Part shown: positions 24,622 through 47,288 of the stretch, piece by piece
Numbering within the stretch: the first letter of the stretch is position 1
Layout: each line of letters opens with the position of its first letter
NCBI GenBank assembly: GCA_041661245.1
Contig: JBAZUY010000002.1
Coordinates: 178,153 to 242,152 of the forward strand
Direction of reading: 5' to 3'
DNA length: 64,000 nucleotides
Origin: an archaeon
GTDB lineage: Archaea > Iainarchaeota > Iainarchaeia > Iainarchaeales > JAAZKV01
Notes under the pieces: model-generated
The model's database searches: none
What the model was told of the DNA's origin: nothing
Seen by the model: only the letters and a program-made list of their open reading frames with translations
Translations under genes and position numbers: made by a program

Positions 24622-24771
24622 TTATCCAACCCAAGTGAAAGATTTTTGACCAGCAGAACTTGTGCTTGATGGAACATATCCTTTTTTTTGAGGGCAAACA
24701 GCCCCTTTGATGAATTGGGTTTTTGAATCATCATTAACTTGAATCGGTTCTCCATCAGCAAACAGCATCAT
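24622..24771 (-). CDS. unannotated 49-aa partner ORF of the beta-helix gene (ends QKSFTWVG)
   Basis: My translation: MMLFADGEPIQVNDDSKTQFIKGAVCPQKKGYVPSSTSSAGQKSFTWVG. It starts 2 nt after the upstream stop. Its C-terminus is shared with the ORF at 26537-26692. Confidence 0.45.
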   Translation of the reverse strand: MMLFADGEPIQVNDDSKTQFIKGAVCPQKKGYVPSSTSSAGQKSFTWVG

Positions 24772-24773
24772 AC

Positions 24774-26474
24774 TTAGCTCACCGTAAAATCATCAACATT
24801 AATTGCATAATTATTCATGTTCGGCAAGAACTCCATGCTTAGTTCTCCGTCAGCTGTAATCAAATTAGCAGCGCAAGTCCAAGTGTACAATACCCAATCA
24901 GTTGTAAGCGCAGTAATATTACTCTCGGTTTTAATTGTTACTCCGTCAAGTTTCCACTTAGGAGTTAATGTTCCTGCCCAAGAAGCATTACTTGCCTTAA
25001 GATACATTGCAAAAGTTTTTGCAGTACTTGCTTTTGCAAAACAAGAAACTATTTTTACATCAAGATTATTTGCAGTAGTTGTACTAACCCAAGAAATACC
25101 GCAACTTGGAGCAGTTGTTCTAAAAGTGTTATAATCTTTTGTCACAGAACCTGCCCCCCAAATGGTACCAGTTTGGCCAAATGAATTTTGGAAAGTATAC
25201 ATCTTTAACGCATAACCACTAACTGGTCGGGAATATGCTTTTGCAATTGATCCACTGTCAATCGTGCAACCATAACAAGAAACAACTCCGGATGTTCCAG
25301 TCTTATCAATCCCATAAGTTGTTGGAGAATTAAAAGTACAATTAGTCAAATAAACTTCCCCTGCATAACCATCCAAATAAATTCCTTTACCGCAAGCTGA
25401 AAAAGAACATGAATCAATGATTACTCCGTGAACTTGTTGAATAAATATTCCATAAGAAGTGCAATTTGTGAATACACAATTCTTGAAAACCATCCCGGCT
25501 TGGAGGGTATTTGTAGAAATCCCCGTACCACAATTCTCAAAAGTGCAGGCATCAATTACGACATTAGTGGTAACACTACTTATCCCAGTTGTTAAATTTC
25601 TAAAATAACAATTTGTTACTCCCCCGCCAGAACCAGAAATTGCGACAAGCCCGCTAGTTCCAGAAATTATTTTATTATTTACTATTGTACTTGATGCTGC
25701 AAAATTTCCAATTCCCCCAATTCCTAACAAAAAAGAATTTCTACAAGTAATGACTGCATTATTACCATAAACCCCTGAATAAGATACAACTGCAGAAGCA
25801 CAACAAGCATCAATAACCCCGCCAGTATTAGTATAAATTCCAATAGCGTAAGCATGCGCAGTACAATTAGAGATAGTCATTAAAGTAATACCAAAACCAT
25901 AATTTGTTTCAACACAATTTATTTTTGAAATAGTTGCATTAGTAGTAGTATTAACTCCATAGAAACTAACAGTTCTTGCATTATTTGATTTGAACCAAGT
26001 TTCTCCATCTTGAGTTTGAGAAGTTAAATTCCATCCGCCTGAAAGAATTGTTCCGTTGGACAAAGTCATTGCATGAGCCCCAGCAGCACCTGTTGTTACC
26101 ACAACTAATTTGTTGCAGGAAGAAGTTGATCCTGTTGACCCACCATATTTAAGTTCCAAAGTAACCGCTGTTGGAGAAACTCCATTTACTCGGTAAAATG
26201 TTTCTTCAGCCCCATTTCCCGCAGCAGTTGGTTTGCCAATATAACTTCCAACTGCAATACTTCCGGAAACATCCGAAGAAGTATTTACTGTAACACTATT
26301 CGCAGTCCAAGTAAAAGTTGAAGAAACAGAAACGTAATCCGCAGTCTTTGCAACCCTAATATCATGAGGCCCACTAGCTTTTGCTACCGCAGCATTAACA
26401 GTTAAAAGCGGAGCACCAGCAGTACCCGCCGCAGCATCACTCCCACTCGCAATATCAACATAATAAATTGCCAT
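24774..26474 (-). CDS. right-handed beta-helix protein, subfamily B (no signal peptide), C-terminal jelly-roll/CBM-like domain
   Basis: Starts MAIYYVDIASGSDAAAGT. Contains many NC[TVY]F / xNCxxG PbH1-like repeats. C-terminus is ...YAINVDDFTVS. It is a paralog of 26694-28454. Confidence 0.7.
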   Translation of the reverse strand: MAIYYVDIASGSDAAAGTAGAPLLTVNAAVAKASGPHDIRVAKTADYVSVSSTFTWTANSVTVNTSSDVSGSIAVGSYIGKPTAAGNGAEETFYRVNGVSPTAVTLELKYGGSTGSTSSCNKLVVVTTGAAGAHAMTLSNGTILSGGWNLTSQTQDGETWFKSNNARTVSFYGVNTTTNATISKINCVETNYGFGITLMTISNCTAHAYAIGIYTNTGGVIDACCASAVVSYSGVYGNNAVITCRNSFLLGIGGIGNFAASSTIVNNKIISGTSGLVAISGSGGGVTNCYFRNLTTGISSVTTNVVIDACTFENCGTGISTNTLQAGMVFKNCVFTNCTSYGIFIQQVHGVIIDSCSFSACGKGIYLDGYAGEVYLTNCTFNSPTTYGIDKTGTSGVVSCYGCTIDSGSIAKAYSRPVSGYALKMYTFQNSFGQTGTIWGAGSVTKDYNTFRTTAPSCGISWVSTTTANNLDVKIVSCFAKASTAKTFAMYLKASNASWAGTLTPKWKLDGVTIKTESNITALTTDWVLYTWTCAANLITADGELSMEFLPNMNNYAINVDDFTVS

Positions 26475-26536
26475 TTTAATTCACCAAAAGTATAACAAAC
26501 TAAACACAACGCAGTATTTAATTCTTATCAAAAAAG

Positions 26537-26692
26537 TTATCCAACCCAAGTAAAAGATTTTTGTGTGCTACAACTAGTGCCACTTGAAGGAGTGTAAGTA
26601 CTTATTGAGGGAACAATCCCCCCAGCCAGAAAAGCATTTTTTACTGGAATTTGTAACCCCAATGCTTGCCCCCTAACCACAATCATTGTCAT
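26537..26692 (-). CDS. unannotated 51-aa partner ORF (ends QKSFTWVG)
   Basis: My translation: MTMIVVRGQALGLQIPVKNAFLAGGIVPSISTYTPSSGTSCSTQKSFTWVG. It starts 1 nt after the upstream stop. Confidence 0.45.
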   Translation of the reverse strand: MTMIVVRGQALGLQIPVKNAFLAGGIVPSISTYTPSSGTSCSTQKSFTWVG

Positions 26693-26693
26693 T

Positions 26694-28454
26694 TTAACTC
26701 ACCACTAAATCATCCACGTACACAGCATATGCATTCATGTTTGTTTGAAACTCCAAACTTAATTCTCCATCAGAAGTAATTAAATTTCCTGCACAAGTAT
26801 AAGAGTACTGTACCCAACTTGTAGTAACTGAAGTTATACTCGACTCAGTTTTAATTAATTTTCCATTAATTTTCCATTTTGGAATTAATGTTCCGGACCA
26901 AGAAGCATTACTCGCTTTCAAATAAAATGCAAATGTTCGTGCATTATTTGCATTCACATATGCAGAACCAATCTTGATATCAAAAGCATTATTTGTTGTT
27001 AATGCCGCCCAAGAAATACTTAAAGACGGAGGAGTAGTTCGATAAACAGTGGCTTCTTGTAAAACTGCCCCAGCTCCATAAATTGTTCCTGATTGACCAA
27101 ATGACCCTTGCAAAATATATTGCACCATATTATAACCAACCGCAGTAATATTGTATGCTTTTGCTTGTGAAGCACTATCAATTGAACAACCATAAATGAA
27201 TGCAGTCCCACAAGCACCATTTTCTCTATAAATTGCATAATTTGTGGGAGTAGTAAAAGTACAATTTGTTAAAACATGGTCCCCCGAATATTGATCCATA
27301 CTAATCCCATAAGAAACTGAACTAAATGTGCAACTATCCACAAGTAGGGATTTACAATAACTTGTGGTAATTGCAGTCCCTGTACCATTTTGAAAAGTAC
27401 AATTTCTAATAACATAACCACTCGCCAAGTTATTTGTGACATTCGCTTTAACACCCGTCCCACAATTATTAAAAGTAAAACCATCAATTACTGCGTTTGC
27501 CCCCGGTTGGTAATAACCAGTAGTACAATTTGAAATAATATTATTAGAATAAGTAATTGGCGAAGCGGTAACAGAATTGCAATTAATACCATATATCCCA
27601 GAATTAAATTTACAATTCGAAACAGTTCCTGAAGGAGTTGAATTATAATAAAGACAACCTAGCCCACTTAACCCACTATAAAGATAACAAGAAGTAATTG
27701 TTATTGCTGGAGTTCCCGCAATATAAATCGCTGAATTAGCATTAAAGTTTGAGCCACAACAATTTTGAAAAGTACCTGCAGAACCTGCCGAAAAATAATA
27801 ACCAAGTACATAAGCTGAACTAGTACAATTTGTAAAAGTTGAGGCTGTGCCCCCATTAATAGTAAATCCAACATAAGATTCAGCACAATTCATTTTTGAA
27901 ACTGTTGCATTTGCAGTAAGGGTCAACCCGTATGCAGAAGTCGCTGTTCTTAGACCATTACTTTTAAACCAAGTCTCTCCATCCTGAGCTTGAGTAGATA
28001 AATTCCATCCGCCAGAAATAGTTGTTCCTGTAGTATTACAAGTCATTGCAGTTGCTCCCGCAGCACCTGTCGTTACAACTACAAGCTTATTTACAGAAGA
28101 TTCAGTTTTTGTTGTCCCCCCATATTTTAATTCAAGAGTAATTGTGGCTGAAGTAATTGACACAACTCTGTAAAATGTTTCTTCAGCCCCATTACCTGCA
28201 GCAGTTGTTGTCCCAATATAATCTCCTGCTGCAATCGAAGCAGTTTTGTCCGCTGAAGTAGAAACTGAGGTTGAGTTGTTAGTCCAAGTAAAAGTTGCAC
28301 CACTTATTGAAGTATAAGCACTTGTTTTTGCAACCCTAATATCATGAGGACCACTAGCTTTTGCAACAGCTGCATTAACAGTTAAAAGAGGAGCAACATT
28401 AGTGCCTGCAGCAGCATCACTCCCACTAGCCAAATCCACATAATAAATTGCCAT
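26694..28454 (-). CDS. right-handed beta-helix protein, subfamily B (no signal peptide)
   Basis: Starts MAIYYVDLASGSDAAAGT. Contains PbH1-like NCTF repeats. C-terminus is ...YAVYVDDLVVS. Confidence 0.7.
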   Translation of the reverse strand: MAIYYVDLASGSDAAAGTNVAPLLTVNAAVAKASGPHDIRVAKTSAYTSISGATFTWTNNSTSVSTSADKTASIAAGDYIGTTTAAGNGAEETFYRVVSITSATITLELKYGGTTKTESSVNKLVVVTTGAAGATAMTCNTTGTTISGGWNLSTQAQDGETWFKSNGLRTATSAYGLTLTANATVSKMNCAESYVGFTINGGTASTFTNCTSSAYVLGYYFSAGSAGTFQNCCGSNFNANSAIYIAGTPAITITSCYLYSGLSGLGCLYYNSTPSGTVSNCKFNSGIYGINCNSVTASPITYSNNIISNCTTGYYQPGANAVIDGFTFNNCGTGVKANVTNNLASGYVIRNCTFQNGTGTAITTSYCKSLLVDSCTFSSVSYGISMDQYSGDHVLTNCTFTTPTNYAIYRENGACGTAFIYGCSIDSASQAKAYNITAVGYNMVQYILQGSFGQSGTIYGAGAVLQEATVYRTTPPSLSISWAALTTNNAFDIKIGSAYVNANNARTFAFYLKASNASWSGTLIPKWKINGKLIKTESSITSVTTSWVQYSYTCAGNLITSDGELSLEFQTNMNAYAVYVDDLVVS

Positions 28455-38460: not shown

Positions 38461-39423
38461 ATGGACGCAAGCAAATCCTTGATTTGCTTTGTTGCGTGCG
38501 CCGTGCCTGCACTAGCGCCGGCAAAACACTCTCCAAATGTTTATATGGGGTTAGAAGGAATAGATGTAACATCGGGTTTTGTGATGGAAAAACAATTAAT
38601 TGTCAAATTAACAAAGACTTTTGAAGATTTTGCGCATAAGAAAGACGGCGTTGAATTTTGGTTTGCGAGAGATTTGCAAACTCTTTTAGGGTATGACAAA
38701 TGGGAAAATTTTTCAACAGTTATTGAGAAGGCTAAAGAATCATGCAAGAATTCAGGATTTGACGCAAAGAACCATTTTCCCGACGTTAGGAAAATGGTAG
38801 GGCTTGGATCTGGTTCCGAAAGAGAAATTTTAGATTACACACTAACTCGGTATGCTTGTTATTTAATAGCACAAAACGGAGACCCAAGAAAAGAAGAGAT
38901 TGCTTTTGCGCAAAGTTATTTTGCTATCCAAACAAGAAAACAAGAATTAATTGAACAAAGAATTAAACTCGTTGAAAGAGTACAAGCAAGAAAAAAATTA
39001 ACAGAATCAGAGACAGAACTATCAAAACTCATTTATGAACGAGGAGTTGATGCTGACGGGTTTGCAAGAATTCGAAGCAAAGGAGATTTTGCACTATTTG
39101 GAGGAAATGACACAAACCAAATGAAACAAAAATTAAGTATTCCAAAAAACAGACCATTAGCTGATTTTTTGCCAACTGTAACAATTGCTGCAAAAAACTT
39201 GGCGACAGAGCTAACCAACTTCAATGTAAAACAAAACGATTTGGAAGGAGAAGTAAAAATATCCTCAGAACACATAAAAAATAACAAAGAAATGCGAAAT
39301 GTTTTAGCAAAAAACAAAATTATTCCTGAAAACTTACCTGCTGAAGAAGACCTTAAAAAACTAGAACGAAATGTAAAAAAAGATGAGAAAAAGCTTTACT
39401 CAAAAATAAACAAATCAAAATAA
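38461..39423 (+). CDS. dinD: DNA damage-inducible protein D (DinD)-like protein
   Basis: FEDFAHKKDGVEFWFARDLQTLLGYDKWENFSTVIEKAK matches my recollection of the DinD family. The true start is probably the ATG at 38584 (MEKQLIV...), because the upstream 41 codons are GC-rich and look non-coding. Confidence 0.65.
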   Translation: MDASKSLICFVACAVPALAPAKHSPNVYMGLEGIDVTSGFVMEKQLIVKLTKTFEDFAHKKDGVEFWFARDLQTLLGYDKWENFSTVIEKAKESCKNSGFDAKNHFPDVRKMVGLGSGSEREILDYTLTRYACYLIAQNGDPRKEEIAFAQSYFAIQTRKQELIEQRIKLVERVQARKKLTESETELSKLIYERGVDADGFARIRSKGDFALFGGNDTNQMKQKLSIPKNRPLADFLPTVTIAAKNLATELTNFNVKQNDLEGEVKISSEHIKNNKEMRNVLAKNKIIPENLPAEEDLKKLERNVKKDEKKLYSKINKSK

Positions 39424-40122
39424 TTAATCCTTTTTCTCTTCTTCCACAGGTTTCTTTCTTTTCCAAAGTCCAAATCCATCAAAGATACTGATTTCAAATA
39501 ACAAATACAATGGAAGGAATAATATTGTTTGACCAATTACATCCATTGGAGTGAATGGGCAAAATATTACAAACGCAAATATGGCAACAGCAACCATGGG
39601 CCTTTGTTTTGCTAATTTGTCCCGATTAATCCATCCCTTCTTTATTACATACCTCAACGGAATTGGAAACAAAAAGATTAATCCTGTTCCGAAAGAAACT
39701 GTTAGAATTGTTGTTAAAAGATTTCCATAATCCCAAAGAGAAGTAATTCCAATTGCTTTGTTTAATTCAACAAAATAGGGAACAACAAATTTAGTATAAG
39801 TTACTGCTCCAACAATTATTCCTGCTAAGAATAAAAATAAACCAAAAATAGAAGATTTTATTGCAAATTCTTTTTCTTCCTTATAGAGCGCACCCCACGC
39901 ATAAGACATAAAACTAATTACTGCCAAGGGAGCATACAAAAGTAAACCCGCTAAAACCCCGGTTTCCATTAGAGCCATAAATGAATTAACAGGATTAATA
40001 CTAACTACTTCAACAGATCCAACAAGGGAAACGAGAAACTTAGCTAGGTCCATTGAAAAGAACAAGCCAATGCAAAGCGCTAACACGAGCGCAATTGCAT
40101 TAGCAATTAATAGATTTCGCAC
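39424..40122 (-). CDS. tatC: twin-arginine translocase subunit TatC (short form)
   Basis: 232 aa with six TM helices. The FMALMETGVLAGLLLYAPLAVISFMSYAWGALYKEEKE region matches the conserved TatC TM2-TM3 loop (PGLY..E). Confidence 0.7.
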   Translation of the reverse strand: MRNLLIANAIALVLALCIGLFFSMDLAKFLVSLVGSVEVVSINPVNSFMALMETGVLAGLLLYAPLAVISFMSYAWGALYKEEKEFAIKSSIFGLFLFLAGIIVGAVTYTKFVVPYFVELNKAIGITSLWDYGNLLTTILTVSFGTGLIFLFPIPLRYVIKKGWINRDKLAKQRPMVAVAIFAFVIFCPFTPMDVIGQTILFLPLYLLFEISIFDGFGLWKRKKPVEEEKKD

Positions 40123-40126
40123 AAAA

Positions 40127-40321
40127 TCACTTTTTCTTTGCTTTTGTTTTTACTGCTTTGCCTTCACTAGCGTCAGCAAAAGCTTTCTTTGCTTCACCAA
40201 GTGATTTAGCCCACTCAATTACTTTTGGTGCTCCGAAAAGCAATATTACTGCTAAAACAACTATGATTAGCACTGTGTCTGTTATTCCAAACATTGATAA
40301 TTCCTCCAATAAAACTAACAC
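40127..40321 (-). CDS. tatA: twin-arginine translocase subunit TatA/E
   Basis: MFGITDTVLIIVVLAVILLFGAPKVIEWAKSLGEAKKAF shows the TatA pattern: TM helix, FG hinge, amphipathic helix. The likely start is the ATG at 40294. Confidence 0.7.
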   Translation of the reverse strand: MLVLLEELSMFGITDTVLIIVVLAVILLFGAPKVIEWAKSLGEAKKAFADASEGKAVKTKAKKK

Positions 40322-40359: not shown

Positions 40360-41211
40360 CTATTTCGCAAGAGTGTTATCGTACATTTCTTTTACTTCTG
40401 TTGCACTTAGTGGTCTTCTCCAAATGGATAGATCTTGAATTGAACCAGTAAAATAATTATTTGTATTTACTCCATCAAAGTTTGCCCCAATGTATAATGG
40501 AGAAGTGTTTGTGAAATCTACTCCTTCAACTAAAGAACACAAGTCCTTTTCCACTAGTTTACCATCAATAAATCTCTGGCAATTACCAAAGTGATCTACC
40601 GAATAAACTAAGAAGTGATAATTTGATGCTGTGCTAGGGATACTTGCGTCATACACTACTTTTTCCCCATCAGCTAGTTTTAGAGATACTTCTGAAGATT
40701 GTTTAGTGTAAACTCCAAACCCAACCGAGTTTGTATTTGTATCCATTTTGGATAAGATTGTGGAGTTTTCTTTTGGAGAATATTTTACCCATAAAGCAAT
40801 TGTAAACCCTTGTTTTGGTGCAAAGTTTAACAAAGAATTATTTTCGACTTTAATGTACCCATTCCCATTGAAATTAATTGCTTTCTTTCCCCACATACCA
40901 TCAATATAATTTACTGAAGTTGCTTGTCCGTCCAAACCATTACCGCTTGAATCAAAAGTGTCCCCGTTAAAGTGCCACATTGCGGCTAAACCAGCAGCAA
41001 CATAATTGTCTTTTTCCACTACTTGATTATTAATTGTAACCACATTACTATCTGCTTCAATTGCACCTGAAGAAGTTCTTGGGACAACACTAGGAGTTGG
41101 ATTGAGTAAGAAATTTAGTCCCATAACAAGAACAGCTAATACAATTAGAATAACAAAAGCAATTCCCAAATATTCCAAAATTTTATTCCCAGTAACCTTC
41201 ATACAAACCAC
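40360..41211 (-). CDS. membrane-anchored LamG / concanavalin-like lectin domain protein
   Basis: N-terminal TM helix. WHFNGDTFDSSGNGLDGQ...AINFNGNGYI...FTIALWVK...SIWRRPLSATEV follows the typical LamG-jellyroll pattern. Confidence 0.6.
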   Translation of the reverse strand: MVCMKVTGNKILEYLGIAFVILIVLAVLVMGLNFLLNPTPSVVPRTSSGAIEADSNVVTINNQVVEKDNYVAAGLAAMWHFNGDTFDSSGNGLDGQATSVNYIDGMWGKKAINFNGNGYIKVENNSLLNFAPKQGFTIALWVKYSPKENSTILSKMDTNTNSVGFGVYTKQSSEVSLKLADGEKVVYDASIPSTASNYHFLVYSVDHFGNCQRFIDGKLVEKDLCSLVEGVDFTNTSPLYIGANFDGVNTNNYFTGSIQDLSIWRRPLSATEVKEMYDNTLAK

Positions 41212-41338: not shown

Positions 41339-41809
41339 TCAACTAATTACACTAGTTGATTTAATGCTTGCCCCGGAATTTATCCCGGTCCCTTGTAAAA
41401 CAAAAAACTTAATCGCCATTGCTTTTGGATAACCTGGATAAAGATAAGTATTTCTAAAATGCATTGACGCAACTTTTGGATAATTTGGAGGAACATAATT
41501 ATTCTTGAATTTAATTGCTTTAAACTTTGGCCACCCAAAATTCAAATTTGCATTTGTATGGAAAGCCAAAAGCTTGGGATACCCGGGATAAGTATAGTTG
41601 TTTAGGGTGTTAAACGCCAATAATTTTGGATAGTTTGGAGGAACATAATTATTGTTAATTGCAAAACCTTTGAGAGTTGCGGTTGGGATTAGCCAAAAAT
41701 TCAACGCTTTTACTCTTAACCCTGAACTTTGTGTTTGAAAATTAATTCCTTTAACTTGAGGAGTTCTATCTGTTTGAAAATTAAGCCCTTTTATTGTTGG
41801 ATTAGACAT
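41339..41809 (-). CDS. 9-repeat micro-protein partner (fused triple version of the 3-repeat ORFs)
   Basis: 156 aa with nine units: PTIKGLNF, PQVKGINF, LRVKALNF, ATLKGFAI, PKLLAFNT, PKLLAFHT, PKFKAIKF, PKVASMHF, PKAMAIKF. Confidence 0.6.
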   Translation of the reverse strand: MSNPTIKGLNFQTDRTPQVKGINFQTQSSGLRVKALNFWLIPTATLKGFAINNNYVPPNYPKLLAFNTLNNYTYPGYPKLLAFHTNANLNFGWPKFKAIKFKNNYVPPNYPKVASMHFRNTYLYPGYPKAMAIKFFVLQGTGINSGASIKSTSVIS

Positions 41810-41814
41810 TCAAA

Positions 41815-43134
41815 TCACGCTGAGACATCGTCAGTTCTAAGAGTCAATCTTACTTGAATAAATCTTCCAGAAACTGGAGTTATGGGCATTTCCAATTTTA
41901 CTTCAGTCCAAGCAATAGTTCCATCATCTTGATTAAATGAAGTACCACTACCCCTCACTTCAATTGTTTGGTAATTTGGTTTTGTGTCAGAAGTAGTTGT
42001 ATCAACCATTGTTGTCCCCCAGGTTTGATCAACAGCAAGATTGATTTGTTTAATTGCTTGAACACTTCCAAAATCATATACAGGGGACCAAATTACCCCC
42101 GCCGTTCCACCAATTAACTCAAAAAATCCAGTTGTGCCATTCTTGCCAACATTTCCATCAGGATTATACCATCCTGAATTATCATGCCCTGCATCAGGAA
42201 TAATATTCCAATTACTTTGCGGATCATAAGCTTGTCCTCTTGCGTAACCAAAAGGGATTGCTCCTTGAGTAGATGAAATACTTGAAGCAGTTGTCAAATA
42301 AAATATTTCATTCGCAGGATCAGCAAAATTTGGATTAGCAGAAATACTACTTGCATCAAAACCAACGGCTTGCCAAGCTGCCAAAGTAGCATAAGTGCCC
42401 CCGCCAGTAATCCAACCACTTGTGATTGAATAATAATGATTTTTAATTATTATTGCCGATGCAAGGTTAGCATTTGAAGTGCCTGTCCTAAAGGCATAAG
42501 TACAATTTGAAACAATATTATTCATAAAAACTATCGGGAATGCGGCTTGATTTGCAAAAGTTTGATATAACGCATATCCACAATTGTAAAAGGTGTTATT
42601 TACAACCGTATTAATAACTGTAGAATTATTTGCGGATAAATAAATCGCATAATTTGCTCCACTAAATCCAGAAAACAAACAATTTTGAATTATTGTAGGG
42701 GCAGTGTATACTGTGTTATAAATTGCAGCAGTTTGTCCATTAGAATAAAACTCTACCCCTTGTACTGATAAGGTAGTAAGAACAGGAGTATTCAAATAAA
42801 GCAGATACGACCCAATATGATTCTTTATTATTAATTTTCCACCTGTCGAATAAGGAGCAAAGGATTTGGTTTGTGTCCCTGCAATGTTAATCGTTATTGC
42901 ATTTCCTGAAGCAAGACTTGTCCCATCAAGAATTACAGTCCCATCAAAATAAATTGTTCCATTGAAAGTAGAAGGGATAGTTATTTTTTCATTATACGTC
43001 CCGCTTCCTATCACTAATGCGTCTCCAGTAGTTGTAAGAAGATTTGCCCCTGCTTGAATAGTTAATTTTGCTAGTGCGGCGGTTGTTCCATTGTTTGAAT
43101 CCGAACCGGATTTGTTTACATAATATGTTGCCAT
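41815..43134 (-). CDS. right-handed beta-helix protein, subfamily A (no signal peptide)
   Basis: Starts MATYYVNKSGSDSNNGTTAALAKLTIQAG. C-terminus is ...RFIQVRLTLRTDDVSA. An AGGTGA Shine-Dalgarno sequence and an in-frame TGA lie upstream. Confidence 0.7.
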   Translation of the reverse strand: MATYYVNKSGSDSNNGTTAALAKLTIQAGANLLTTTGDALVIGSGTYNEKITIPSTFNGTIYFDGTVILDGTSLASGNAITINIAGTQTKSFAPYSTGGKLIIKNHIGSYLLYLNTPVLTTLSVQGVEFYSNGQTAAIYNTVYTAPTIIQNCLFSGFSGANYAIYLSANNSTVINTVVNNTFYNCGYALYQTFANQAAFPIVFMNNIVSNCTYAFRTGTSNANLASAIIIKNHYYSITSGWITGGGTYATLAAWQAVGFDASSISANPNFADPANEIFYLTTASSISSTQGAIPFGYARGQAYDPQSNWNIIPDAGHDNSGWYNPDGNVGKNGTTGFFELIGGTAGVIWSPVYDFGSVQAIKQINLAVDQTWGTTMVDTTTSDTKPNYQTIEVRGSGTSFNQDDGTIAWTEVKLEMPITPVSGRFIQVRLTLRTDDVSA

Positions 43135-43151
43135 TTTTCTTTTTCACCTAA

Positions 43152-44456
43152 TTATGCTTGAACATTATTATTTCTTAATGTGATTCTAAATTGAATGTAT
43201 TGCCCTGTAATGGAGGGAGTTATTGTTCCATTGTATCTTACTTCTGTCCAACTTGGAGAAGCATCTCCTTGATTGTATGTTGAGTTACTTACTCTTACTT
43301 CCATTGTTTGTGCATTTGGTTGAGTATCAGTTCCAGTTGTGTCCACCATATTTGTTGGCCAATATTGAACCGTTGCTAAATTTATTCTTGAAAAAGTTGC
43401 TACCCCACTCAAATTATATACTGGCGACCAAAGAACTCCTGCAGTCCCGCCAGAGAGTTCAAAAGATCCTGTTGTTCCACTTTTTGTAATATTTCCGTCG
43501 GGGTTGTACCAACCCGAATTATCTGCCGTGCCCGTAATAATCCACTTTGAATCAGAATCATTTCCTGCCCCTCTTGATAAACCAAAAGGATAAGCTCCAA
43601 CTTTCGGACCCAAAGGAGAAACTGTTTCTAAAAAGAAAACTTCATTTGCAGGATCTGTAAGGGTTGGATCTTCAAAAATACTTCCCTGTTCAAATCCTGC
43701 TACTTGTGCTTGTGCCAGAGTAGTGTATGTGTTAGCAACATTTCTCCAATTTGTAATATTATAAAACTGATTATTAAAAGAAACTAACGTTGCATTTGTA
43801 GCAGATACTTGGTACCAAGCGGTTGTAATATTTGAGAAAATATTATTCCACATGTAGGTTAAATGAGTTTGAGGTGCATAGAATCCAGTTCCACACCCAT
43901 AAAATGTATTATAGTAAATACTACTTGTTGCAGAATATCCACTATTTGATTGAACTGCATAAGTGAATGCTCCGCTAAAAACACAATAACTCATATTTAT
44001 TGCACAAGTTTGTCCTCCCCCACCATAACAAGATACTCCAATAGTATTAGTTGGAGAATACCTAAAAACACAATTGTTCAAATAATAAACTGTAGTTGTA
44101 TTAACCGCTAAATATAACAATGCGGCTCCAACATTATTTTGGAAAATCCATTGACCGCCAGTAGTATATGCTCCAATAGTATACGAGGTTCCTGCTCCCC
44201 CAGACATTTGGAAAAGATACCCACTACCAAATCCACTACCATCTACAATAACTGTTCCGTCAGCATAAAAGTTTCTTAGAGTGGAAGAAGGTCTTTCGTT
44301 GTACAACCCCGAACCCACAATTATTGTGTCTCCGGATGCAGAACCTGTAATCGCTCCGCTAATTGTTAACTTTGGCCCAGTTATTCCACTAACAAAAGTT
44401 TGAGAAGTACCATCATAGGAGTCACTTCCACTTTTGTTTACATATTTTATTGCCAT
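43152..44456 (-). CDS. right-handed beta-helix protein, subfamily A (no signal peptide)
   Basis: Starts MAIKYVNKSGSDSYDGTSQTFVSG. C-terminus is ...QYIQFRITLRNNNVQA. Confidence 0.7.
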   Translation of the reverse strand: MAIKYVNKSGSDSYDGTSQTFVSGITGPKLTISGAITGSASGDTIIVGSGLYNERPSSTLRNFYADGTVIVDGSGFGSGYLFQMSGGAGTSYTIGAYTTGGQWIFQNNVGAALLYLAVNTTTVYYLNNCVFRYSPTNTIGVSCYGGGGQTCAINMSYCVFSGAFTYAVQSNSGYSATSSIYYNTFYGCGTGFYAPQTHLTYMWNNIFSNITTAWYQVSATNATLVSFNNQFYNITNWRNVANTYTTLAQAQVAGFEQGSIFEDPTLTDPANEVFFLETVSPLGPKVGAYPFGLSRGAGNDSDSKWIITGTADNSGWYNPDGNITKSGTTGSFELSGGTAGVLWSPVYNLSGVATFSRINLATVQYWPTNMVDTTGTDTQPNAQTMEVRVSNSTYNQGDASPSWTEVRYNGTITPSITGQYIQFRITLRNNNVQA

Positions 44457-44473
44457 TTTTATTTTTCACCTAA

Positions 44474-45784
44474 TTATGCTTGAACACCATTATTTCTCAT
44501 TGTTAATCTAACTTGGAAATATCTCCCGCTCACTGCAGAGATTGCAACATTGTATTTTACTTCAACCCAACTTATTACTCCATCATTCTGATTAAAAGTA
44601 CTACCACTTGCACGAAGTTCTACGGTTTGATAATTTGGACGAACATCACTTGCAGTTGCATCAACCATATTTGTCGGCCAATATTGAGTAGAAGCTAAAT
44701 CAACTTCAGTCACTGTTACACTATTTCCTAAATCATAAATTGGAGAATATAACACTGCAACATTCCCATTTGTTAACTCAAAGAATCCTGTTGTTCCATT
44801 CTTAGTTGCATTTCCATCCGGATTATACCAACCAGAATTATCTGCGGTCCCAGTAATATTCCAAGTTGAACCAACATCATTTGCTGCACCCAAAGTAAAA
44901 CCAAATGGATACGCTCCAATATCCGCCCCAACAGGAGAAACAACTTTTGGATAAAATATTCCATTCGAGGGGTCAGTTAATTGAGGATCTACTGAAACTG
45001 AGTTTACTTCAAAACCTGCGGCTTGAATCAATGCTAAAGAATCATAGTCTTGATTATAGGGATGCCATTTGGAAACGTTGTACTCATGATTATTAATGGT
45101 AGTTGGCATAAGGGAGGTAGAAAAACTTAAGTACCACGCGTAAGTACAAGTGTGGAGCATATTTTGATAAAAATTATTTTCCATTCTAACAGTCCCATAA
45201 AGAGCATACGTGAGATTATAGAAAGTATTATTGTAAATACTATTAGTACTGCTTGGAGCTTGTCCTTGTCCTCCAACAGCACCAATCCCAGTACCTCCAA
45301 AAGTACTATTAGAAAAAACACAATGGTGTATTGCTAAATAATTATAACCTGCAGTGCCTGCGTAAATACCATACGTATTTCCAAATTGCATATTAAACGT
45401 ACAACTTGAAATGTAAAAATAAGCAACAGTGTTTGTTCCAGTTCCGGCAGAATATATAATGGAGGTACCAATATTATTTTGGAAAACCCACTGCCCCCCA
45501 GTTGAAGCAGCTGCAATAGATAAAGCAAAAGTAGCATTTCCAGACCATGACAGAAGCGGACCAGAAGAAAGAGAATAACCATCCCATATAACAATTCCAT
45601 CCGCTAACAAAGTTGTGGTTTTATTTGCAATAGAACATTTTTCATTATAAAGACCACTCCCGACAATAAGGGTATCATTAGTAGCAAGTAAATTAATTCC
45701 GGCTTGAATAGTCAATTTTGCTAAAGCCGCAGTAGTGCCATTATTTGCATTATCCCCACTTTTGTTTACGTAATATGTTGCCAT
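44474..45784 (-). CDS. right-handed beta-helix protein, subfamily A (no signal peptide)
   Basis: Starts MATYYVNKSGDNANNGTTAALAKLTIQAG. C-terminus is ...RYFQVRLTMRNNGVQA. Confidence 0.7.
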   Translation of the reverse strand: MATYYVNKSGDNANNGTTAALAKLTIQAGINLLATNDTLIVGSGLYNEKCSIANKTTTLLADGIVIWDGYSLSSGPLLSWSGNATFALSIAAASTGGQWVFQNNIGTSIIYSAGTGTNTVAYFYISSCTFNMQFGNTYGIYAGTAGYNYLAIHHCVFSNSTFGGTGIGAVGGQGQAPSSTNSIYNNTFYNLTYALYGTVRMENNFYQNMLHTCTYAWYLSFSTSLMPTTINNHEYNVSKWHPYNQDYDSLALIQAAGFEVNSVSVDPQLTDPSNGIFYPKVVSPVGADIGAYPFGFTLGAANDVGSTWNITGTADNSGWYNPDGNATKNGTTGFFELTNGNVAVLYSPIYDLGNSVTVTEVDLASTQYWPTNMVDATASDVRPNYQTVELRASGSTFNQNDGVISWVEVKYNVAISAVSGRYFQVRLTMRNNGVQA

Positions 45785-45793
45785 TTTTATTTT

Positions 45794-46450
45794 TCACCAT
45801 GTACTTATTGCTACTCTTTTCCAAGAATTGGTTGCGACACAAATGTAAACGTAATTTGCATCCCAACAAATATCTCCTTGTGTTCCTGCTGCTGTTGCAC
45901 TTGCAGGAGTTTTTGCGGTTCTTATTCTTATTCCATCATCTAAAATATCTAGTTTTCTTGTTGGAGCATTTGTTCCAATTCCTACTCTATTATTCAAAGC
46001 ATCAGTATAAATCAAATACTGATCGCCCACACTTTTTACATTAAATGAATCAGCAGCAGCATTTCCAAGTCCACTATTAACCACTAAACCTTTTGAAATG
46101 GTGGATTGCGCTGTTCCCCCAGTTATTGTTAAATATTTATTTGTATAATCCCAAGTAAAGTTTGCATTTCCTGAGATTGCACTTGGACCTATTCCGTAAG
46201 CAATTTGATTGTTCGCAATTGTTGGAGCAACATTAAGGAAACCTTCAACTGGATAATTTACCCCTCTGCTTCTGAAAACTAATCCTGAAGCATTAGCTAC
46301 TCCTGACAAGCCAATTACTCCAACACCAATTGCCCCTGCAATTAGTGCTTTTTTCTTTAGTGATTCTCTAAAATCTAAATCGGGTGTATCAACTGGAGTT
46401 GAACCGAAGAATTGTTTCTTTTTCTTTTCGATGTATTCTTCAAGATCCAT
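45794..46450 (-). CDS. Tat-like (xR) signal peptide protein with a tail-fibre-like mature domain, operon head 3
   Basis: Signal FRESLKKKALIAGAIGVGVIGLSGVANA|SG. The mature part contains NRVGIGTNAPTRKLDI and the C-terminal GDICWDANYVYICVATNSWKRVAISTW. Confidence 0.6.
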   Translation of the reverse strand: MDLEEYIEKKKKQFFGSTPVDTPDLDFRESLKKKALIAGAIGVGVIGLSGVANASGLVFRSRGVNYPVEGFLNVAPTIANNQIAYGIGPSAISGNANFTWDYTNKYLTITGGTAQSTISKGLVVNSGLGNAAADSFNVKSVGDQYLIYTDALNNRVGIGTNAPTRKLDILDDGIRIRTAKTPASATAAGTQGDICWDANYVYICVATNSWKRVAISTW

Positions 46451-47288
46451 CGCTAATCACCGTATTACCATTTTCGTCAATATACATTTTTCCCAAATTA
46501 TTATCTAATGAAGTAATAGTTATTGAGGGATTAGATTTGTAAACATTAAGATCCATTGTTACTGGATTTGTTAATCCTGCTCCGCCCCCTCCGCAAGTTC
46601 CCCAACTTAATGCACCGCTAACTATTTTCAGACAATTACCATCTTGTCCGGTGTAATCTGGTAAACTTGATCCTCCTTGGCATGCTTGAACTTCTCCCTG
46701 CGCTACACACACTACATTATTTATTCCTTCAAAATTCCAAGTAACATTATCTTTTTTTCCCAACACTAATGCTTCTCCTCCAGAGATTAATTTTTGGGTT
46801 TGATTTAGCGGAGAGTAATAAAATAATATTTTGTCATACGCACAACCATTACTTGTTGGACATACTCCAATATCCGGAAAGAAAATTGCTTTTTGTTCTT
46901 TTGGATTAAATACAATTCCATTTCCACTAATTGTGAATTCATTTTCATCAACTTTGTAACCAATTAAACGCAAACCAAACTCAGTATTGTTTGTTAAAAC
47001 AAAAACAGCATCCCCGTTTTCATCAACCATCGCATCTGCTAACGCAATTGTTTGAGTACTCCAATATTGTTTATTTTGAATAGAAGTCAAGTTTGGACTT
47101 TTTGCTCCTCCCTCAAAAACTGTAACAAACAAAGTTATTGCAGCAATAGAAATTACAATTATTACAACTACAATTGTTAAGTATTCAGTTATCCCTTGCG
47201 CCCTCTCCGATACCCGCGCTCTATTCCCAACAAAACCCATGCGTAATATTAGTCTTAAGTAGTTAAAAAAGGTTTTCTTAATGAACAA
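46440..47288 (-). CDS. class III signal peptide (pilin-like) protein
   Basis: Contains RAQGITEYLTIVVVIIVISIAAITL. The likely start is the ATG at 47240 (MGFVGNRARVSERAQG...). It overlaps the next gene by 11 nt. Confidence 0.6.
   Translation of the reverse strand: MFIKKTFFNYLRLILRMGFVGNRARVSERAQGITEYLTIVVVIIVISIAAITLFVTVFEGGAKSPNLTSIQNKQYWSTQTIALADAMVDENGDAVFVLTNNTEFGLRLIGYKVDENEFTISGNGIVFNPKEQKAIFFPDIGVCPTSNGCAYDKILFYYSPLNQTQKLISGGEALVLGKKDNVTWNFEGINNVVCVAQGEVQACQGGSSLPDYTGQDGNCLKIVSGALSWGTCGGGGAGLTNPVTMDLNVYKSNPSITITSLDNNLGKMYIDENGNTVISDGS

What the first reader, a model, noticed from the sequence alone, without database searches (positions are those of the whole stretch)
39424..40321. tatA-tatC embedded in the cluster: possible hitchhiker export of folded, signal-less beta-helix proteins
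The only translocase genes in the window, tatA (40127-40294) and a short tatC (39424-40122), sit between units 2 and 3.

Eleven large beta-helix proteins in the block lack any signal peptide. The heads of their operons carry Tat-like signals. The Tat pathway exports folded proteins, and it is known to co-export signal-less partners bound to a signal-bearing subunit. E. coli hydrogenase-2 HybOC and DmsAB are examples.

This operon logic suggests that fibre-head/beta-helix complexes assemble in the cytoplasm, perhaps with help from the micro-ORFs, and then cross the membrane together. That is entirely inference.

The TatC here also lacks the usual N-terminal amphipathic segment that precedes TM1.
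Basis: inference. Interest (0 to 1): 0.75.

Follow-up and report, generated by a model that had tools for sequence, protein, structure and literature searches.

The report
Truncated Tat exporter beside phage-like fibre genes
An uncultured archaeon carries a real but unusual folded-protein exporter (TatA/TatC) next to phage-tail-like surface protein genes; the exporter and the export signals on those genes appear to have lost the same half of the classic twin-arginine recognition pair, while the proposed piggy-back export of the signal-less beta-helix proteins remains untested.

Summary
tatA (40127-40294) and tatC (39424-40122) are genuine: both pass Pfam's cut-offs, the TatC model has the TatC fold, and tatC has dN/dS of 0.10-0.24. 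TatC starts at the equivalent of E. coli L16, and four of its five versions (window plus four relatives) have no longer reading frame.

Three things change the picture:
- **Position.** tatAC ends the unit-3 gene string. It again lies beside a beta-helix gene or a gene with the same signal in all three related contigs whose neighbours could be read.
- **Signals.** The head signals are Tat-like in shape but never have two arginines. The motif is cap-x-R-[DNE]-[SG]-L-K. The cap, second Arg, Leu and Lys are kept. The first Arg and the Phe are lost. In the 2026 E. coli TatBC-substrate structure, those two positions contact TatC L9/H12/L13/E15, which is the segment deleted here. The second-arginine site (E103, Y100, F94 equivalents) is retained.
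- **Origin.** The heads, beta-helix proteins, LamG protein and micro-ORFs form a phage tail-fibre/tailspike module. In phage-like contigs the head homologue seen whole (L017) has no signal, and none of those contigs has the signal or tatAC, so the beta-helix proteins are signal-less by ancestry.

My best reading is a dedicated "single-arginine" TatAC system that exports phage-derived fibre heads. Hitchhiking is plausible but unproven (about 0.2). I count nine beta-helix genes, not eleven.

The parts
39424..40122 (-). tatC, 232 aa. It begins at the equivalent of E. coli L16, so it lacks L9/H12/L13/E15. It keeps Y74 (=F94), L79 (=L99), Y80 (=Y100), E83 (=E103), T191 (=T208), D194 (=D211) and Q198 (=Q215).
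   Evidence: Pfam 95.3 bits. Aligned to E. coli TatC 9dzz_A residues 16-246. Seven-sequence alignment. AF2 model plus Foldseek: TatC takes the top seven hits; the first six have TM 0.55-0.62. dN/dS is 0.10-0.24.
40127..40294 (-). tatA, 55 aa. It has a TM helix with a conserved D6, the LLFG hinge, an amphipathic helix and a Lys-rich tail. It is the only TatA-family gene in the window, so this is a TatAC-type two-component system.
   Evidence: Pfam TatA_B_E 31.3 bits. GGAGG upstream and a 4-nt gap to the tatC GTG. 73-93% identical copies sit next to tatC in L005, L007 and L008.
40360..41211 (-). LamG/concanavalin-like protein with a very hydrophobic N-terminal TM anchor. It lies directly upstream of tatA. 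LamG>tatA>tatC is conserved in L005.
   Evidence: Pfam Laminin_G_3, E = 1.2e-20. PHROG virion structural protein hits. 63% identical copy in L005.
41339..41809 (-). 156-aa repeat protein (P-K-L-x-A-F-x-F type repeats). It is the long form of the micro-ORF family that follows beta-helix genes.
   Evidence: Sequence. Short relatives occur in phage-like loci L009 and L015.
41815..45784 (-). Three tandem signal-less right-handed beta-helix paralogues (41815-43134, 43152-44456, 44474-45784). They are 42-47% identical to one another, with conserved N-cap and C-terminal domain and a variable middle.
   Evidence: Alignment A3. AF2 model and Foldseek hits to lyases, esterases and tailspikes. Family search.
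45794..46450 (-). Head 3, 218 aa. The Tat-type signal spans residues 1-54 (46289-46450), with motif D-F-R-E-S-L-K-K and cleavage at ANA|S. The C-terminus resembles a phage tail protein.
   Evidence: PHROG tail protein hit, E = 1.7e-10. 62% identical to the signal-less fibre protein of L017.
46440..47288 (-). Pilin-like protein with an archaeal class III signal (RAQGITEYLTIVVV). It is the first gene of the unit-3 string and overlaps the head-3 start by 11 nt.
   Evidence: Sequence. Hydrophobicity.
36404..37153 (-). Head 2, 249 aa. The signal spans residues 1-46 (37016-37153), with motif S-K-R-D-S-L-K-K. The mature part is a mosaic: an APLKFTSG tail-fibre module plus a 55-aa C-terminal module.
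29146..36351 (-). Unit 2: four signal-less beta-helix genes (34252-36351, 32478-34028, 30883-32241, 29343-30668). Each is followed by a 63-70 aa micro-ORF (34058-34249, 32263-32475, 30689-30880, 29146-29340).
28482..29009 (-). Head 1, 175 aa. The signal spans residues 1-39 (28893-29009), with motif T-K-R-N-S-L-K-K. The mature part matches phrog_35197 and phrog_10330 (virion structural protein).
24622..28454 (-). Unit 1: two signal-less beta-helix genes of a second subfamily (26694-28454, 24774-26474). Each is followed by a roughly 50-aa micro-ORF ending QKSFTWVG (26537-26692, 24622-24771).
   Evidence: Pfam Beta_helix, E = 1.9e-16 and 3.3e-14.. Orthologous pair in L005.

Best explanation
tatA-tatC encode a working but divergent two-component (TatAC) folded-protein translocase of an uncultured archaeon. 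It appears to be dedicated to the neighbouring surface-protein cluster.

**Likely direct clients: the head proteins.**
- These are phage tail-fibre-like proteins that gained a long Tat-type signal peptide in this lineage.
- The signal motif is [S/T/D/N]-x-R-[D/N/E]-[S/G]-L-K-[K/R], followed by a Gly/Ala-rich h-region and ANA|S.

**Recognition is 'single-arginine'.**
- TatC keeps the E103/Y100/F94-equivalent site, which in E. coli salt-bridges the second arginine.
- TatC has lost the first 15 residues (L9, H12, L13, E15), which in E. coli hold the first arginine and the consensus phenylalanine.
- The signals have lost exactly those two positions.

**Proposed sequence of events.**
1. The head folds, and probably trimerises, in the cytoplasm as phage fibres do (inferred).
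2. Its signal binds TatC through the invariant Arg (inferred from the E. coli structure).
3. TatA (D6, FG hinge, amphipathic helix) supplies both the TatB-like and the pore functions, as in Bacillus TatAC (inferred).
4. Signal peptidase cuts after ANA (inferred).

Whether the signal-less beta-helix proteins ride along bound to the head is an open extension, not part of what I consider supported.
For: **Shown:**
- Both genes pass Pfam's cut-offs.
- The TatC model has the TatC fold.
- tatC is under purifying selection, with dN/dS 0.10-0.24 across four sequences.
- The N-terminus is short in the window and its relatives; only L005 has an open upstream frame, which overlaps tatA. Residue 1 aligns to E. 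coli L16.
- E83/Y80/L79/T191/D194/Q198 are invariant across all seven TatC sequences aligned, and position 74 is always aromatic.
- Six signal peptides were aligned or read, from the window (three), L005, L019/L020 (protein P0009) and L007. All keep the cap, the Arg, L-K and the ANA site. Position R1 is K, K, F, K, K, Q and position F is S, S, S, S, S, G.
- Their n-regions are 18-34 aa. Their best 12-residue Kyte-Doolittle hydropathy is 2.1-2.5, against 2.8-3.9 for Sec, TM and pilin leaders in the same window.
- tatAC lies beside a gene with this signal or a beta-helix gene in the window, L005, L007 and L008.
- No canonical RR signal and no other Tat-like signal occurs in the 64-kb window or about 10 kb of extra flank.

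**From the literature (PMC13323110, read), for E. coli TatBC-MdoD:**
- R1 bonds through a water molecule to E15 and stacks under F94.
- R2 forms a salt bridge to E103 and packs on Y100.
- The consensus F packs into a pocket made of F94, L9, H12 and L13.
- L and K contact lipid.
- E103 is called essential for signal binding in PMC5201420.
Against: - No signal has twin arginines, so rule-based Tat predictors that require RR would reject all of them (own knowledge of TATFIND and TatP rules).
- A Sec route for the heads is not excluded.
- The co-variation rests on one narrow clade: five TatC sequences at 70-92% identity, and six related signals that are paralogues or orthologues. It may reflect only two or three independent events.
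- TatC and TatA score below the NCBIfam equivalog cut-offs.
- The whole genome was not available. A second, full-length TatC or ordinary RR substrates elsewhere cannot be excluded.
- A 65-nt gap with a TATA-like run precedes tatA, and a 127-nt gap with a terminator-like hairpin precedes the LamG gene. Co-transcription with the heads is therefore not shown.
- One related contig (protein P0002) shows only an unread partial ORF upstream of tatAC and a PAPS reductase gene downstream.
Confidence: 0.55

Rival explanations
1. Hitchhiker export. The signal-less beta-helix proteins bind the signal-bearing head in the cytoplasm, perhaps with the micro-ORF products. They then cross the membrane with it through TatAC and build a fibre-plus-spikes structure on the cell surface.
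For: - The beta-helix genes follow each head gene with gaps of 9-52 nt on the same strand.
- The order head-homologue then beta-helix recurs in phage-like contigs L015/L016 and L017, and the L017 homologue, seen whole, has no signal. This suggests a physical partnership that predates the signal.
- Only the head gained a signal in the archaeal lineage.
- Distant relatives that are clearly secreted carry their own Sec signal directly before the same N-cap motif (P0202, P0223, P0227, P0236, P0237). The fold is therefore normally extracytoplasmic or part of a virion.
- Tat co-export of a signal-less partner is established (Rodrigue et al. 1999, cited in PMC6708511). It is also shown for signal-less MdoD in a figure legend of PMC13323110.
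Against: - Lack of a signal is the ancestral state of the family. Nearly all of the 110 N-termini I read out of the 150 best hits start at residue 1, and the family sits in phage tail modules with no Tat genes. It therefore needs no special explanation.
- No head-to-beta-helix contact was tested.
- There are two to four paralogues per head, and tailspike-type beta-helices are usually trimers of about 140 kDa (own knowledge). The assembled complex would exceed any known Tat cargo.
- No cofactor logic applies, unlike HybOC and DmsAB.
- The AF2 model of the beta-helix protein is only moderately confident, with pLDDT 60.
Confidence: 0.2
2. Coincidental neighbour. tatAC is the organism's general housekeeping Tat system and happens to lie in a variable surface-protein island. 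The heads use Sec.
For: - The signals lack RR.
- tatA has its own Shine-Dalgarno sequence and a possible promoter-like AT-rich run upstream.
- The island is variable. dinD in the window is replaced by a toxin-antitoxin pair in L005, and unit content differs between the two.
- One relative has a PAPS reductase gene next to tatC.
Against: - The adjacency recurs in the three related contigs whose flanks could be read, down to 70% TatC identity and saturated synonymous sites (dS about 1). Gene content differs each time, but there is always a signal-bearing or beta-helix gene.
- The head signals differ sharply from the Sec-type leaders in the same window.
- They keep the cap-R-x-x-L-K register of the Tat motif.
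- The deleted TatC residues match the degenerate signal positions.
Confidence: 0.15
3. Viral module. The whole block is part of an integrated or remnant virus. The heads, beta-helix proteins, LamG protein and micro-ORF products are virion fibre and spike proteins assembled in the cytoplasm or at the membrane. The Tat signal only brings the fibre to the membrane for virion assembly or budding.
For: - Heads hit PHROG tail and virion structural families.
- 308 homologues of head 2 were found, and those read are phage tail-fibre-like.
- The beta-helix family occurs on IMG/VR contigs and beside Collar, DUF1353, LamG and glucosaminidase-bearing giant proteins.
- The BRO-N/DinD gene abuts tatC.
- A sub-threshold holin-like ORF lies at 50297-50620.
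Against: - No capsid, portal, terminase, integrase or replication gene was found among about 55 ORFs scanned with Pfam and about 19 scanned with PHROGs.
- The block is flanked by cellular genes (XPD helicase, serine-pathway enzymes, GrpB, HAD hydrolases). The XPD helicase also adjoins the corresponding head/beta-helix genes in the related MAG contig L005.
- Neither this TatC nor this signal is found on any IMG/VR contig.
- Archaeal class III pilin genes are interleaved with the units.
Confidence: 0.1

Closest known systems
Substrate-dedicated minimal TatAC translocases of Gram-positive bacteria (Bacillus subtilis TatAd-TatCd with PhoD)
   Same: - It is a two-component system with a single, presumably bifunctional TatA and no TatB gene nearby.
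- The translocase genes sit next to the genes of the presumed substrate.
- TatA carries a polar or acidic residue near the start of its TM helix (D6).
   Different: - It is archaeal.
- TatC lacks the first roughly 15 residues.
- The signals have one arginine, not two.
- The clients are phage-fibre-like proteins rather than a phosphodiesterase.
- Dedication is inferred from synteny only.
E. coli TatBC signal-peptide receptor site (Deme et al. 2026, PMC13323110; PDB 9e01)
   Same: - The TatC fold is the same (Foldseek TM 0.56 to 9e01_A).
- The equivalents of E103, Y100, L99 and F94 (aromatic) and of the T208/Q215 polar cluster are conserved.
- The signal keeps the helix-cap residue, the second Arg, the Leu and the Lys in the same register.
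   Different: - The TMH1 residues L9/H12/L13/E15, which hold the first Arg and the Phe, are absent.
- The signals have K/F/Q in place of the first Arg and S/G in place of the Phe.
Tat hitchhiker pairs (E. coli HybO-HybC, DmsA-DmsB)
   Same: One signal-bearing gene product and signal-less partners are encoded side by side in one gene string next to, or served by, a Tat system.
   Different: - No cofactor is involved.
- There are two to four alternative partners per signal-bearing protein.
- The partners are probably large oligomers.
- No complex has been demonstrated.
- The partners' lack of a signal is inherited from phage ancestors.
Natural Tat signals with a non-canonical pair (KR in Salmonella TtrB and plant Rieske protein; own knowledge)
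   Same: The first arginine is replaced and the second is kept.
   Different: In those cases the TatC is full-length and KR is an exception among many RR substrates. Here every signal seen lacks the first Arg (even F and Q occur there), and the receptor half-site is deleted.
Phage branched tail-fibre/tailspike modules (for example CBA120 TSP1-4 and Klebsiella phage depolymerase sets; own knowledge plus Foldseek hits)
   Same: - A fibre-like protein is followed by several diversified right-handed beta-helix paralogues.
- The ends are conserved and the middle is variable.
- There are small companion ORFs and a LamG protein.
- The same families occur on phage-like contigs.
   Different: - The genes are chromosomal in an archaeon with no virion genes nearby.
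- The fibre carries a cleavable export signal.
- The genes are interleaved with archaeal pilin genes and tatAC.

Membership tests
TatC (PF00902) | Sequence match above the curated family threshold | tested here: met
   Pfam scores 95.3 bits against 25.1. The protein is below the stricter NCBIfam equivalog cut-offs: TIGR00945 scores 78.4 against 132.7, and TIGR01912 scores 65.9 against 192.6.
TatC (PF00902) | Six-TM 'cupped hand' fold | tested here: met
   The AF2 model has pLDDT 67. The top seven Foldseek PDB hits are all TatC; the first six (4b4a, 9e01, 4hts, 9dzz, 9e02, 9e07) have TM 0.55-0.62 and probability 1.00, and the seventh (9e03) has TMq 0.48. The next hit has E = 0.37. Model confidence is only moderate.
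TatC (PF00902) | Second-arginine binding site (E. coli E103, Y100, F94) | tested here: met
   E83 and Y80 are invariant across all seven sequences. Position 74 is Y or F.
TatC (PF00902) | First-arginine and phenylalanine site in the N-terminal part of TMH1 (E. coli L9, H12, L13, E15) | tested here: not met
   The protein starts at the equivalent of E. coli L16. The upstream frame is closed and overlaps tatA. The relatives start at the same point, apart from an open overlapping frame in L005, whereas canonical TatCs in the same alignment carry H-L/I-x-E-L-R.
TatC (PF00902) | Polar cluster for the TatA/B TM helix (E. coli T208, Q215) | tested here: met
   T191 and Q198 are invariant.
TatA/E (PF02416) | Family match, plus N-terminal TM helix, F-G hinge and amphipathic helix, encoded next to tatC | tested here: met
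   Pfam scores 31.3 bits against 21. TIGR01411 scores 32 against 53.9, which is not reached. The sequence MFGITDTVLIIVVLAVILLFGAPKVIEWAKSLGEAKKAF shows the layout. The pairing with tatC is conserved in L005, L007 and L008.
Twin-arginine signal peptide | Two consecutive arginines in S/T-R-R-x-F-L-K | tested here: not met
   The pair is KR, KR, FR, KR, KR and QR in the six signals. The Phe position is S or G.
Twin-arginine signal peptide | Long n-region, weakly hydrophobic h-region and an AxA cleavage site | tested here: met
   The n-region is 18-34 aa. The best 12-residue Kyte-Doolittle hydropathy is 2.1-2.5, against 2.8-3.9 for other leaders in the window. The G+A+S fraction is 0.55-0.60. All end in ANA|S or ANA|D.
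Twin-arginine signal peptide | Export depends on Tat | not testable with these tools
   This needs an export assay.
Tat hitchhiker complex | A signal-less partner encoded beside the signal-bearing subunit | tested here: met
   Nine beta-helix genes follow three head genes on the same strand.
Tat hitchhiker complex | A stable cytoplasmic complex of the partners before export | not testable with these tools
   Only single-chain prediction is available. The recurring order head then beta-helix in phage-like contigs is indirect support.
Tat hitchhiker complex | The signal-less partner ends up outside the cytoplasm | not testable with these tools
   No localisation data exist.
Substrate-dedicated TatAC (Bacillus TatAdCd-PhoD type) | tatA-tatC encoded next to the substrate gene, with no tatB | tested here: met
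   Seen in the window, L005, L007 and L008. There is one TatA-family gene in the window. The rest of the genome was not seen.
Prophage or integrated virus | Capsid, portal, terminase, integrase or replication genes in the block | tested here: not met
   None was found among the ORFs scanned with Pfam and PHROGs. The flanks are cellular, and the XPD helicase flank recurs in L005.

The most novel reading that the evidence does not exclude
This would be a natural 'single-arginine' Tat pathway. TatC has shed the TMH1 segment that reads the first arginine and the phenylalanine, and its substrates have shed those same two residues. An archaeon has recruited this pathway to put a pre-folded, phage-derived fibre-and-spike apparatus on its own surface. 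The heads go through by their signal, and the signal-less beta-helix spikes go through as hitchhikers.
Probability: 0.15. Interest if true: 0.85.

Novelty: new variant of a known kind. Interest (0 to 1): 0.6.

Why it matters
**For the Tat field.**
- The twin-arginine pair and the TatC residues H12/E15 are treated as near-universal.
- A lineage under purifying selection lacks both the first-arginine site and the first arginine. That makes it a natural dissection of the recognition code mapped by cryo-EM in 2026.
- The idea is directly testable. One can swap N-termini between TatCs, swap x-R for R-R in the signals, and measure export.

**For archaeal and virus biology.**
- The locus shows a phage receptor-binding module (fibre, diversified spikes, LamG protein and small companion proteins) living in a cellular chromosome.
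- The only addition is an export signal on one protein, with a folded-protein exporter next door.
- This is a concrete route by which a cell could display phage-type adhesins or depolymerases. It would matter for cell-to-cell attachment in small episymbiotic archaea if this organism is one, which I did not test.

**For the hitchhiker question.** Cargo would be far larger than any known Tat substrate, so either outcome is informative.

Tried and rejected
1. **Hidden N-terminal helix of TatC.** I translated all three frames upstream of the GTG.
   - The tatC frame is closed nine codons upstream and lies inside the tatA 3' end.
   - An H-L-V-K-Q-R-K-L-L string appears further upstream in that overlapping frame. 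It is followed by a stop and a highly charged stretch, so I treat it as chance.
   - In L005 the frame is open, but it overlaps tatA by 89 nt.
   - By eye, a -1 or +1 shift at AAG-AAA-AAG-TGA does not lead into the tatC frame.
2. **Profile search with the five aligned signal peptides** against 5.8 billion proteins. Nothing reached E <= 0.001, because the query is too short and compositionally biased.
3. **Metagenome scan with the signal.** It returned one locus, which is the same strain as the window.
4. **Genome-collection scan with TatC.** It returned one related MAG contig. The lineage is rare, so no statistical co-occurrence test was possible.
5. **IMG/VR scans with TatC and with the signal.** Both found nothing.
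6. **Search for canonical RR signals** in every ORF of 60 aa or more. None was found.
7. **tRNA and Rfam scans of the window.** Both were empty.
8. **Sigma-70 promoter and intrinsic terminator scan.** It is uninformative for an archaeon, and the counts were close to those from shuffled sequence.
9. **AF2 of a beta-helix protein.** Confidence was only moderate (pLDDT 60). Foldseek gave generic right-handed beta-helix hits, so no specific enzyme class can be assigned.
10. **Provirus reading.** I rejected it for lack of any virion-core or replication gene.
11. **Literature search for the assembly accession.** No paper was found. The organism is known only as 'uncultured archaeon' from the record title of L005. 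DPANN affiliation is my guess and was not tested.
12. **Walking outward with two extra flank look-ups.** This added a T2SSF pilus platform gene on the left and ordinary genes on the right. It found no further tat genes or signals.
Full report
**1. What is at the coordinates.**

On the minus strand, tatA and tatC lie four bases apart.
- tatA is 40127-40294. Its ATG is preceded by GGAGG, and the maximal ORF runs to 40321.
- tatC is 39424-40122, with a GTG start, and encodes 232 aa.

Both pass Pfam's curated cut-offs.
- TatC scores 95.3 bits against 25.1, E = 5.6e-27.
- TatA_B_E scores 31.3 bits against 21.
- Both stay below NCBIfam's stricter equivalog cut-offs. They are real family members but divergent ones.

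Other support for tatC:
- A profile of it and its relatives finds the solved TatC chains of E. coli and Aquifex.
- An AF2 model (pLDDT 67) retrieves TatC as its seven best PDB matches and nothing else of significance. The first six have TM 0.55-0.62.
- Across the window and three relatives, tatC has dN/dS of 0.10-0.24 with dS up to about 1.2. The short gene is maintained by selection.

No other translocase was found among about 55 ORFs scanned.

The window is archaeal.
- It encodes class III (pilin) signals, PAC2, a SET-domain protein and an XPD helicase.
- The only related genome record is titled 'uncultured archaeon'.
- The same sequence is on NCBI contig JBAYKM010000051.1 of GCA_041664545.1.

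**2. The short N-terminus is real and specific.**

- Residue 1 of this TatC aligns with E. coli L16.
- The reading frame upstream is closed by a stop nine codons up and lies inside the end of tatA.
- Of the four relatives, the three at 70-74% identity begin at the same place: MRNLLIANA, MRKLLIANA and VSFLKKLLIANA. The fourth (L005, 92%) reads VRNLLIANA at that point; its frame is open further upstream but overlaps tatA by about 89 nt.
- The nearest ordinary TatCs in the same alignment carry the usual F-L-x-H-[LI]-x-E-L-R in front of that point.

The rest of the recognition and assembly surface is intact.
- E83 (= E. coli E103), Y80 (= Y100), L79 (= L99), T191 (= T208), D194 (= D211) and Q198 (= Q215) are invariant.
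- Position 74 (= F94) is always aromatic.

**3. The head signals.**

The window has exactly three Tat-like leaders, on the three heads:

| Head | Coordinates |
|---|---|
| 1 | 28482-29009 |
| 2 | 36404-37153 |
| 3 | 45794-46450 |

- No ORF of 60 aa or more has RR followed by an uncharged stretch.
- The leaders have 18-34 residue n-regions, Gly/Ala/Ser-rich h-regions and ANA|S sites.
- Their best 12-residue Kyte-Doolittle hydropathy is 2.1-2.5.
- The Sec-type, TM-anchor and pilin leaders in the same window score 2.8-3.9 and have 3-19 residue n-regions.
- None has twin arginines.

I aligned or read six signals from this lineage. These are the three heads, the L005 head, protein P0009 on L019/L020, and a collagen-like protein immediately downstream of tatC in L007. 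The motif is [S/T/D/N]-x-R-[D/N/E]-[S/G]-L-K-[K/R].

| Position in S-R-R-x-F-L-K | State in the six signals |
|---|---|
| Helix-cap residue | kept (S, T, D or N) |
| First Arg | K, K, F, K, K, Q |
| Second Arg | invariant |
| Phe | S, S, S, S, S, G |
| Leu | invariant |
| Lys | invariant |

**4. The reciprocal loss.**

The 2026 cryo-EM study of E. coli TatBC bound to MdoD (PMC13323110, read) assigns each motif position a contact.

| Motif position | Contact in E. coli TatBC-MdoD |
|---|---|
| Cap residue | caps the signal helix |
| First Arg | bonded through a water molecule to TatC E15; stacks under F94 |
| Second Arg | salt bridge to E103; packs on Y100 |
| Phe | pocket made of F94, L9, H12 and L13 |
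| Leu, Lys | face lipid |

- The segment missing here (E. coli residues 1-15) holds L9, H12, L13 and E15.
- Those are the partners of the two motif positions that are degenerate in these signals.
- Everything that reads the retained Arg is conserved.

I take this as the strongest argument that the leaders are Tat leaders read by this TatC, in a 'single-arginine' mode.

The argument has limits.
- It is an inference from an E. coli structure.
- It rests on one narrow clade, with perhaps two or three independent events.
- It has not been tested against the whole genome.

**5. Linkage of tatAC to the cluster.**

In the window, tatAC ends a tightly packed minus-strand string. The order is: pilin-like gene, head 3, three beta-helix genes, 156-aa repeat protein, LamG protein with a TM anchor, tatA, tatC. 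Most gaps are 4-17 nt. Two are longer, at 127 nt and 65 nt.

| Contig | TatC identity | Arrangement |
|---|---|---|
| L005 | 92% | LamG>tatA>tatC, then a toxin-antitoxin pair, two pilin genes, a head with the KR signal and a beta-helix gene, then the XPD helicase |
| L007 | 72% | tatA>tatC directly followed by the collagen-like protein with the QR signal |
| L008 | 70% | a beta-helix gene, a 69-aa ORF, then tatA>tatC |
| P0002 contigs | 74% | an unread partial ORF before tatA; PAPS reductase after tatC |

- L008 comes from the same sample as a contig with a KR-signal head followed by a large beta-helix gene.
- Adjacency therefore survives saturated synonymous divergence while the neighbouring gene content changes. 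This argues for a functional tie.
- Co-transcription is not shown. A hairpin plus T-run follows the 156-aa gene, and AT-rich runs precede the LamG gene and tatA.

**6. What the cluster is.**

The mature heads are phage tail-fibre-like mosaics.
- Head 1 hits phrog_35197 (E = 5.7e-34) and a virion structural protein family.
- The head 3 C-terminus hits tail protein families.
- Head 2 has 308 homologues. They share either an APLKFTSG...AGAVEF fibre module or a 55-residue module.
- That 55-residue module sits at the extreme C-terminus in all 64 relevant hits.
- Only one homologue, from the same lineage, has the signal.

The beta-helix proteins are right-handed beta-helices.
- Two pass the Pfam Beta_helix cut-off.
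- Foldseek hits are polysaccharide lyases, pectin methylesterases and phage tailspikes.
- The five roughly 440-aa paralogues are 42-47% identical to one another. The N-cap and the roughly 130-aa C-terminal domain are conserved and the middle is variable.

An exhaustive profile search found 1537 relatives, 60 clusters below 1e-30.
- Nearly all of the 110 N-termini I read out of the 150 best hits are 400-450 aa and begin with the MATYYVNKSG motif at residue 1.
- Only distant, giant relatives carry a Sec signal in front of it.

Members of the family sit on phage-like contigs.
- Four tandem copies are on IMG/VR contig L009.
- Copies lie next to Collar, DUF1353, LamG and a glucosaminidase-bearing giant protein in L018.
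- Copies lie after a string of large proteins in L015.
- Copies are on 163-166 kb contigs L013 and L014.

In L017, a signal-less 367-aa fibre protein directly precedes two beta-helix genes. It is 48% identical to head 2 and 62% identical to head 3 over the aligned parts.

- A P-[KQ]-L-x-A-F-x-F repeat family follows each unit-2 beta-helix gene.
- The same family occurs in L009 and L015.

None of the phage-like loci has this signal or tatAC. IMG/VR has neither.

The window block itself has no capsid, terminase, integrase or replication genes and is flanked by cellular genes. I read it as a domesticated phage receptor-binding module, not a provirus.

**7. Mechanism I consider most likely (confidence about 0.55).**

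This is a dedicated TatAC system, comparable in logic to Bacillus TatAdCd-PhoD. It exports the fibre-like heads.
- The heads are the kind of protein that folds and trimerises in the cytoplasm (own knowledge of phage fibres).
- Recognition is through the single invariant Arg and E83.
- The genes, the fold, the selection, the truncation, the signal anatomy and the synteny are shown.
- The binding mode, TatA bifunctionality, cleavage and the extracellular destination are inferred.

**8. The hitchhiker idea (about 0.2).**

It gains some support.
- Head and beta-helix genes are partners in phage-like contexts.
- Only the head acquired a signal in this lineage.
- Tat is the one exporter that could take pre-folded partners.

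It also loses its original main argument. The beta-helix proteins lack signals because the whole family does, as virion proteins, so the absence of a signal is not evidence of piggy-back export.

Size is a further problem. With two to four paralogues per head and probable trimers, the complex would be several hundred kDa, above any known Tat cargo (own knowledge).

Other fates remain open.
- The proteins could stay in the cytoplasm.
- They could be released by lysis or a holin. A sub-threshold holin-like ORF lies at 50297-50620.
- They could be built into particles.

**9. Comparison with the known, and novelty.**

- As genes, tatA and tatC are members of known families.
- As a system, this is a variant I could not find described. 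The TatC lacks the conserved H12/E15 segment and is paired with signals lacking the first arginine and the phenylalanine. It sits inside a phage-derived fibre/spike module of an archaeon.
- My literature searches on Tat in archaea and DPANN, and on TatC structure, turned up nothing like it. Those searches were limited.
- I rate it a new variant of a known kind, with interest 0.6.

Noticed in passing
window 34058-34249, 32263-32475, 30689-30880, 29146-29340, 41339-41809 (minus strand); L009 1094-1378 and 6254-6544; L015 11293-11469: A family of small proteins (58-96 aa, with one 156-aa form) starts M-x-[DN]-P and carries repeated P-[KQ]-L-x-A-F-x-F units. A member follows beta-helix genes within a few bases, both in the archaeal window and in phage-like contigs. 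The function is unknown; it might be a fibre/spike assembly or docking factor.
   Followed up: partly
window 26537-26692 and 24622-24771 (minus strand); L005 6036-6200: A second micro-ORF family (49-54 aa) ends in (Q)-[KR]-[SC]-F-T-W-V-G. A member follows each of the 566-586 aa beta-helix genes of unit 1 and their orthologue in the related MAG.
   Followed up: partly
L007 1007-1915: A 302-aa protein directly downstream of tatC in a relative carries the same single-arginine signal (N-Q-R-E-G-L-K-R...SSVANA|D). This is followed by about 130 residues of collagen-like G-A-T-G-P-T-G repeats. It is a second cargo type for the same signal.
   Followed up: partly
L013 and L014, 16108-17493 (minus strand): A reverse transcriptase (RVT_1) lies beside a beta-helix x2 + LamG module on 163-166 kb phage-like contigs (GC 49%). 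It may be a diversity-generating retroelement acting on the receptor-binding genes.
   Followed up: no
window 38461-39423 (plus strand): A DinD/BRO-N gene (NCBIfam DNA damage-inducible protein D, 358 bits) converges on tatC with no spacer at all (39423/39424). In the 92%-identical relative L005 the same slot holds a MazF-like toxin-antitoxin pair, so this is a variable insertion spot.
   Followed up: partly
window 20729-22513, 37714-38385, 46440-47288; also 11166-11774, 12050-12571, 12640-13212; L021 216-1166: Several large pilin-like proteins with archaeal class III signals (QGT[IT]EYL..., QKGQAA..., RGQAFS...) are interleaved with the units. A run of them lies at 8.8-16.3 kb. A T2SSF/FlaJ-like platform gene sits just left of the window. 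Together these look like a type IV pilus locus next to the fibre/spike cluster.
   Followed up: no
window 50297-50620 (plus strand): A 107-aa two-TM protein gives a sub-threshold match to a holin family (PF07332, 21.8 bits against a cut-off of 28.4). If real, it would offer a lysis-type route for releasing signal-less proteins.
   Followed up: no
window 1763-6475 (minus strand): A 1570-aa protein with a Sec-like hydrophobic leader and Thr/Ser/Pro-rich start has no Pfam or PHROG match. It is probably a giant surface protein.
   Followed up: no
window 40170-40260 (minus strand, frame overlapping tatA); L005 1036-1128: The frame that leads into tatC reads L-N-H-L-V-K-Q-R-K-L-L-L inside the tatA coding region. 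This resembles the missing H-L-x-E-L-R-x-R-L-L of canonical TatC. A stop separates it from tatC in the window, but the frame is open in L005. I judged it to be chance, given the charged, non-TM sequence between the two.
   Followed up: partly
window 63024-63667 (minus strand): A PemK/MazF-type toxin gene lies next to an overlapping 109-aa partner ORF, forming a toxin-antitoxin pair near the right end of the window.
   Followed up: no
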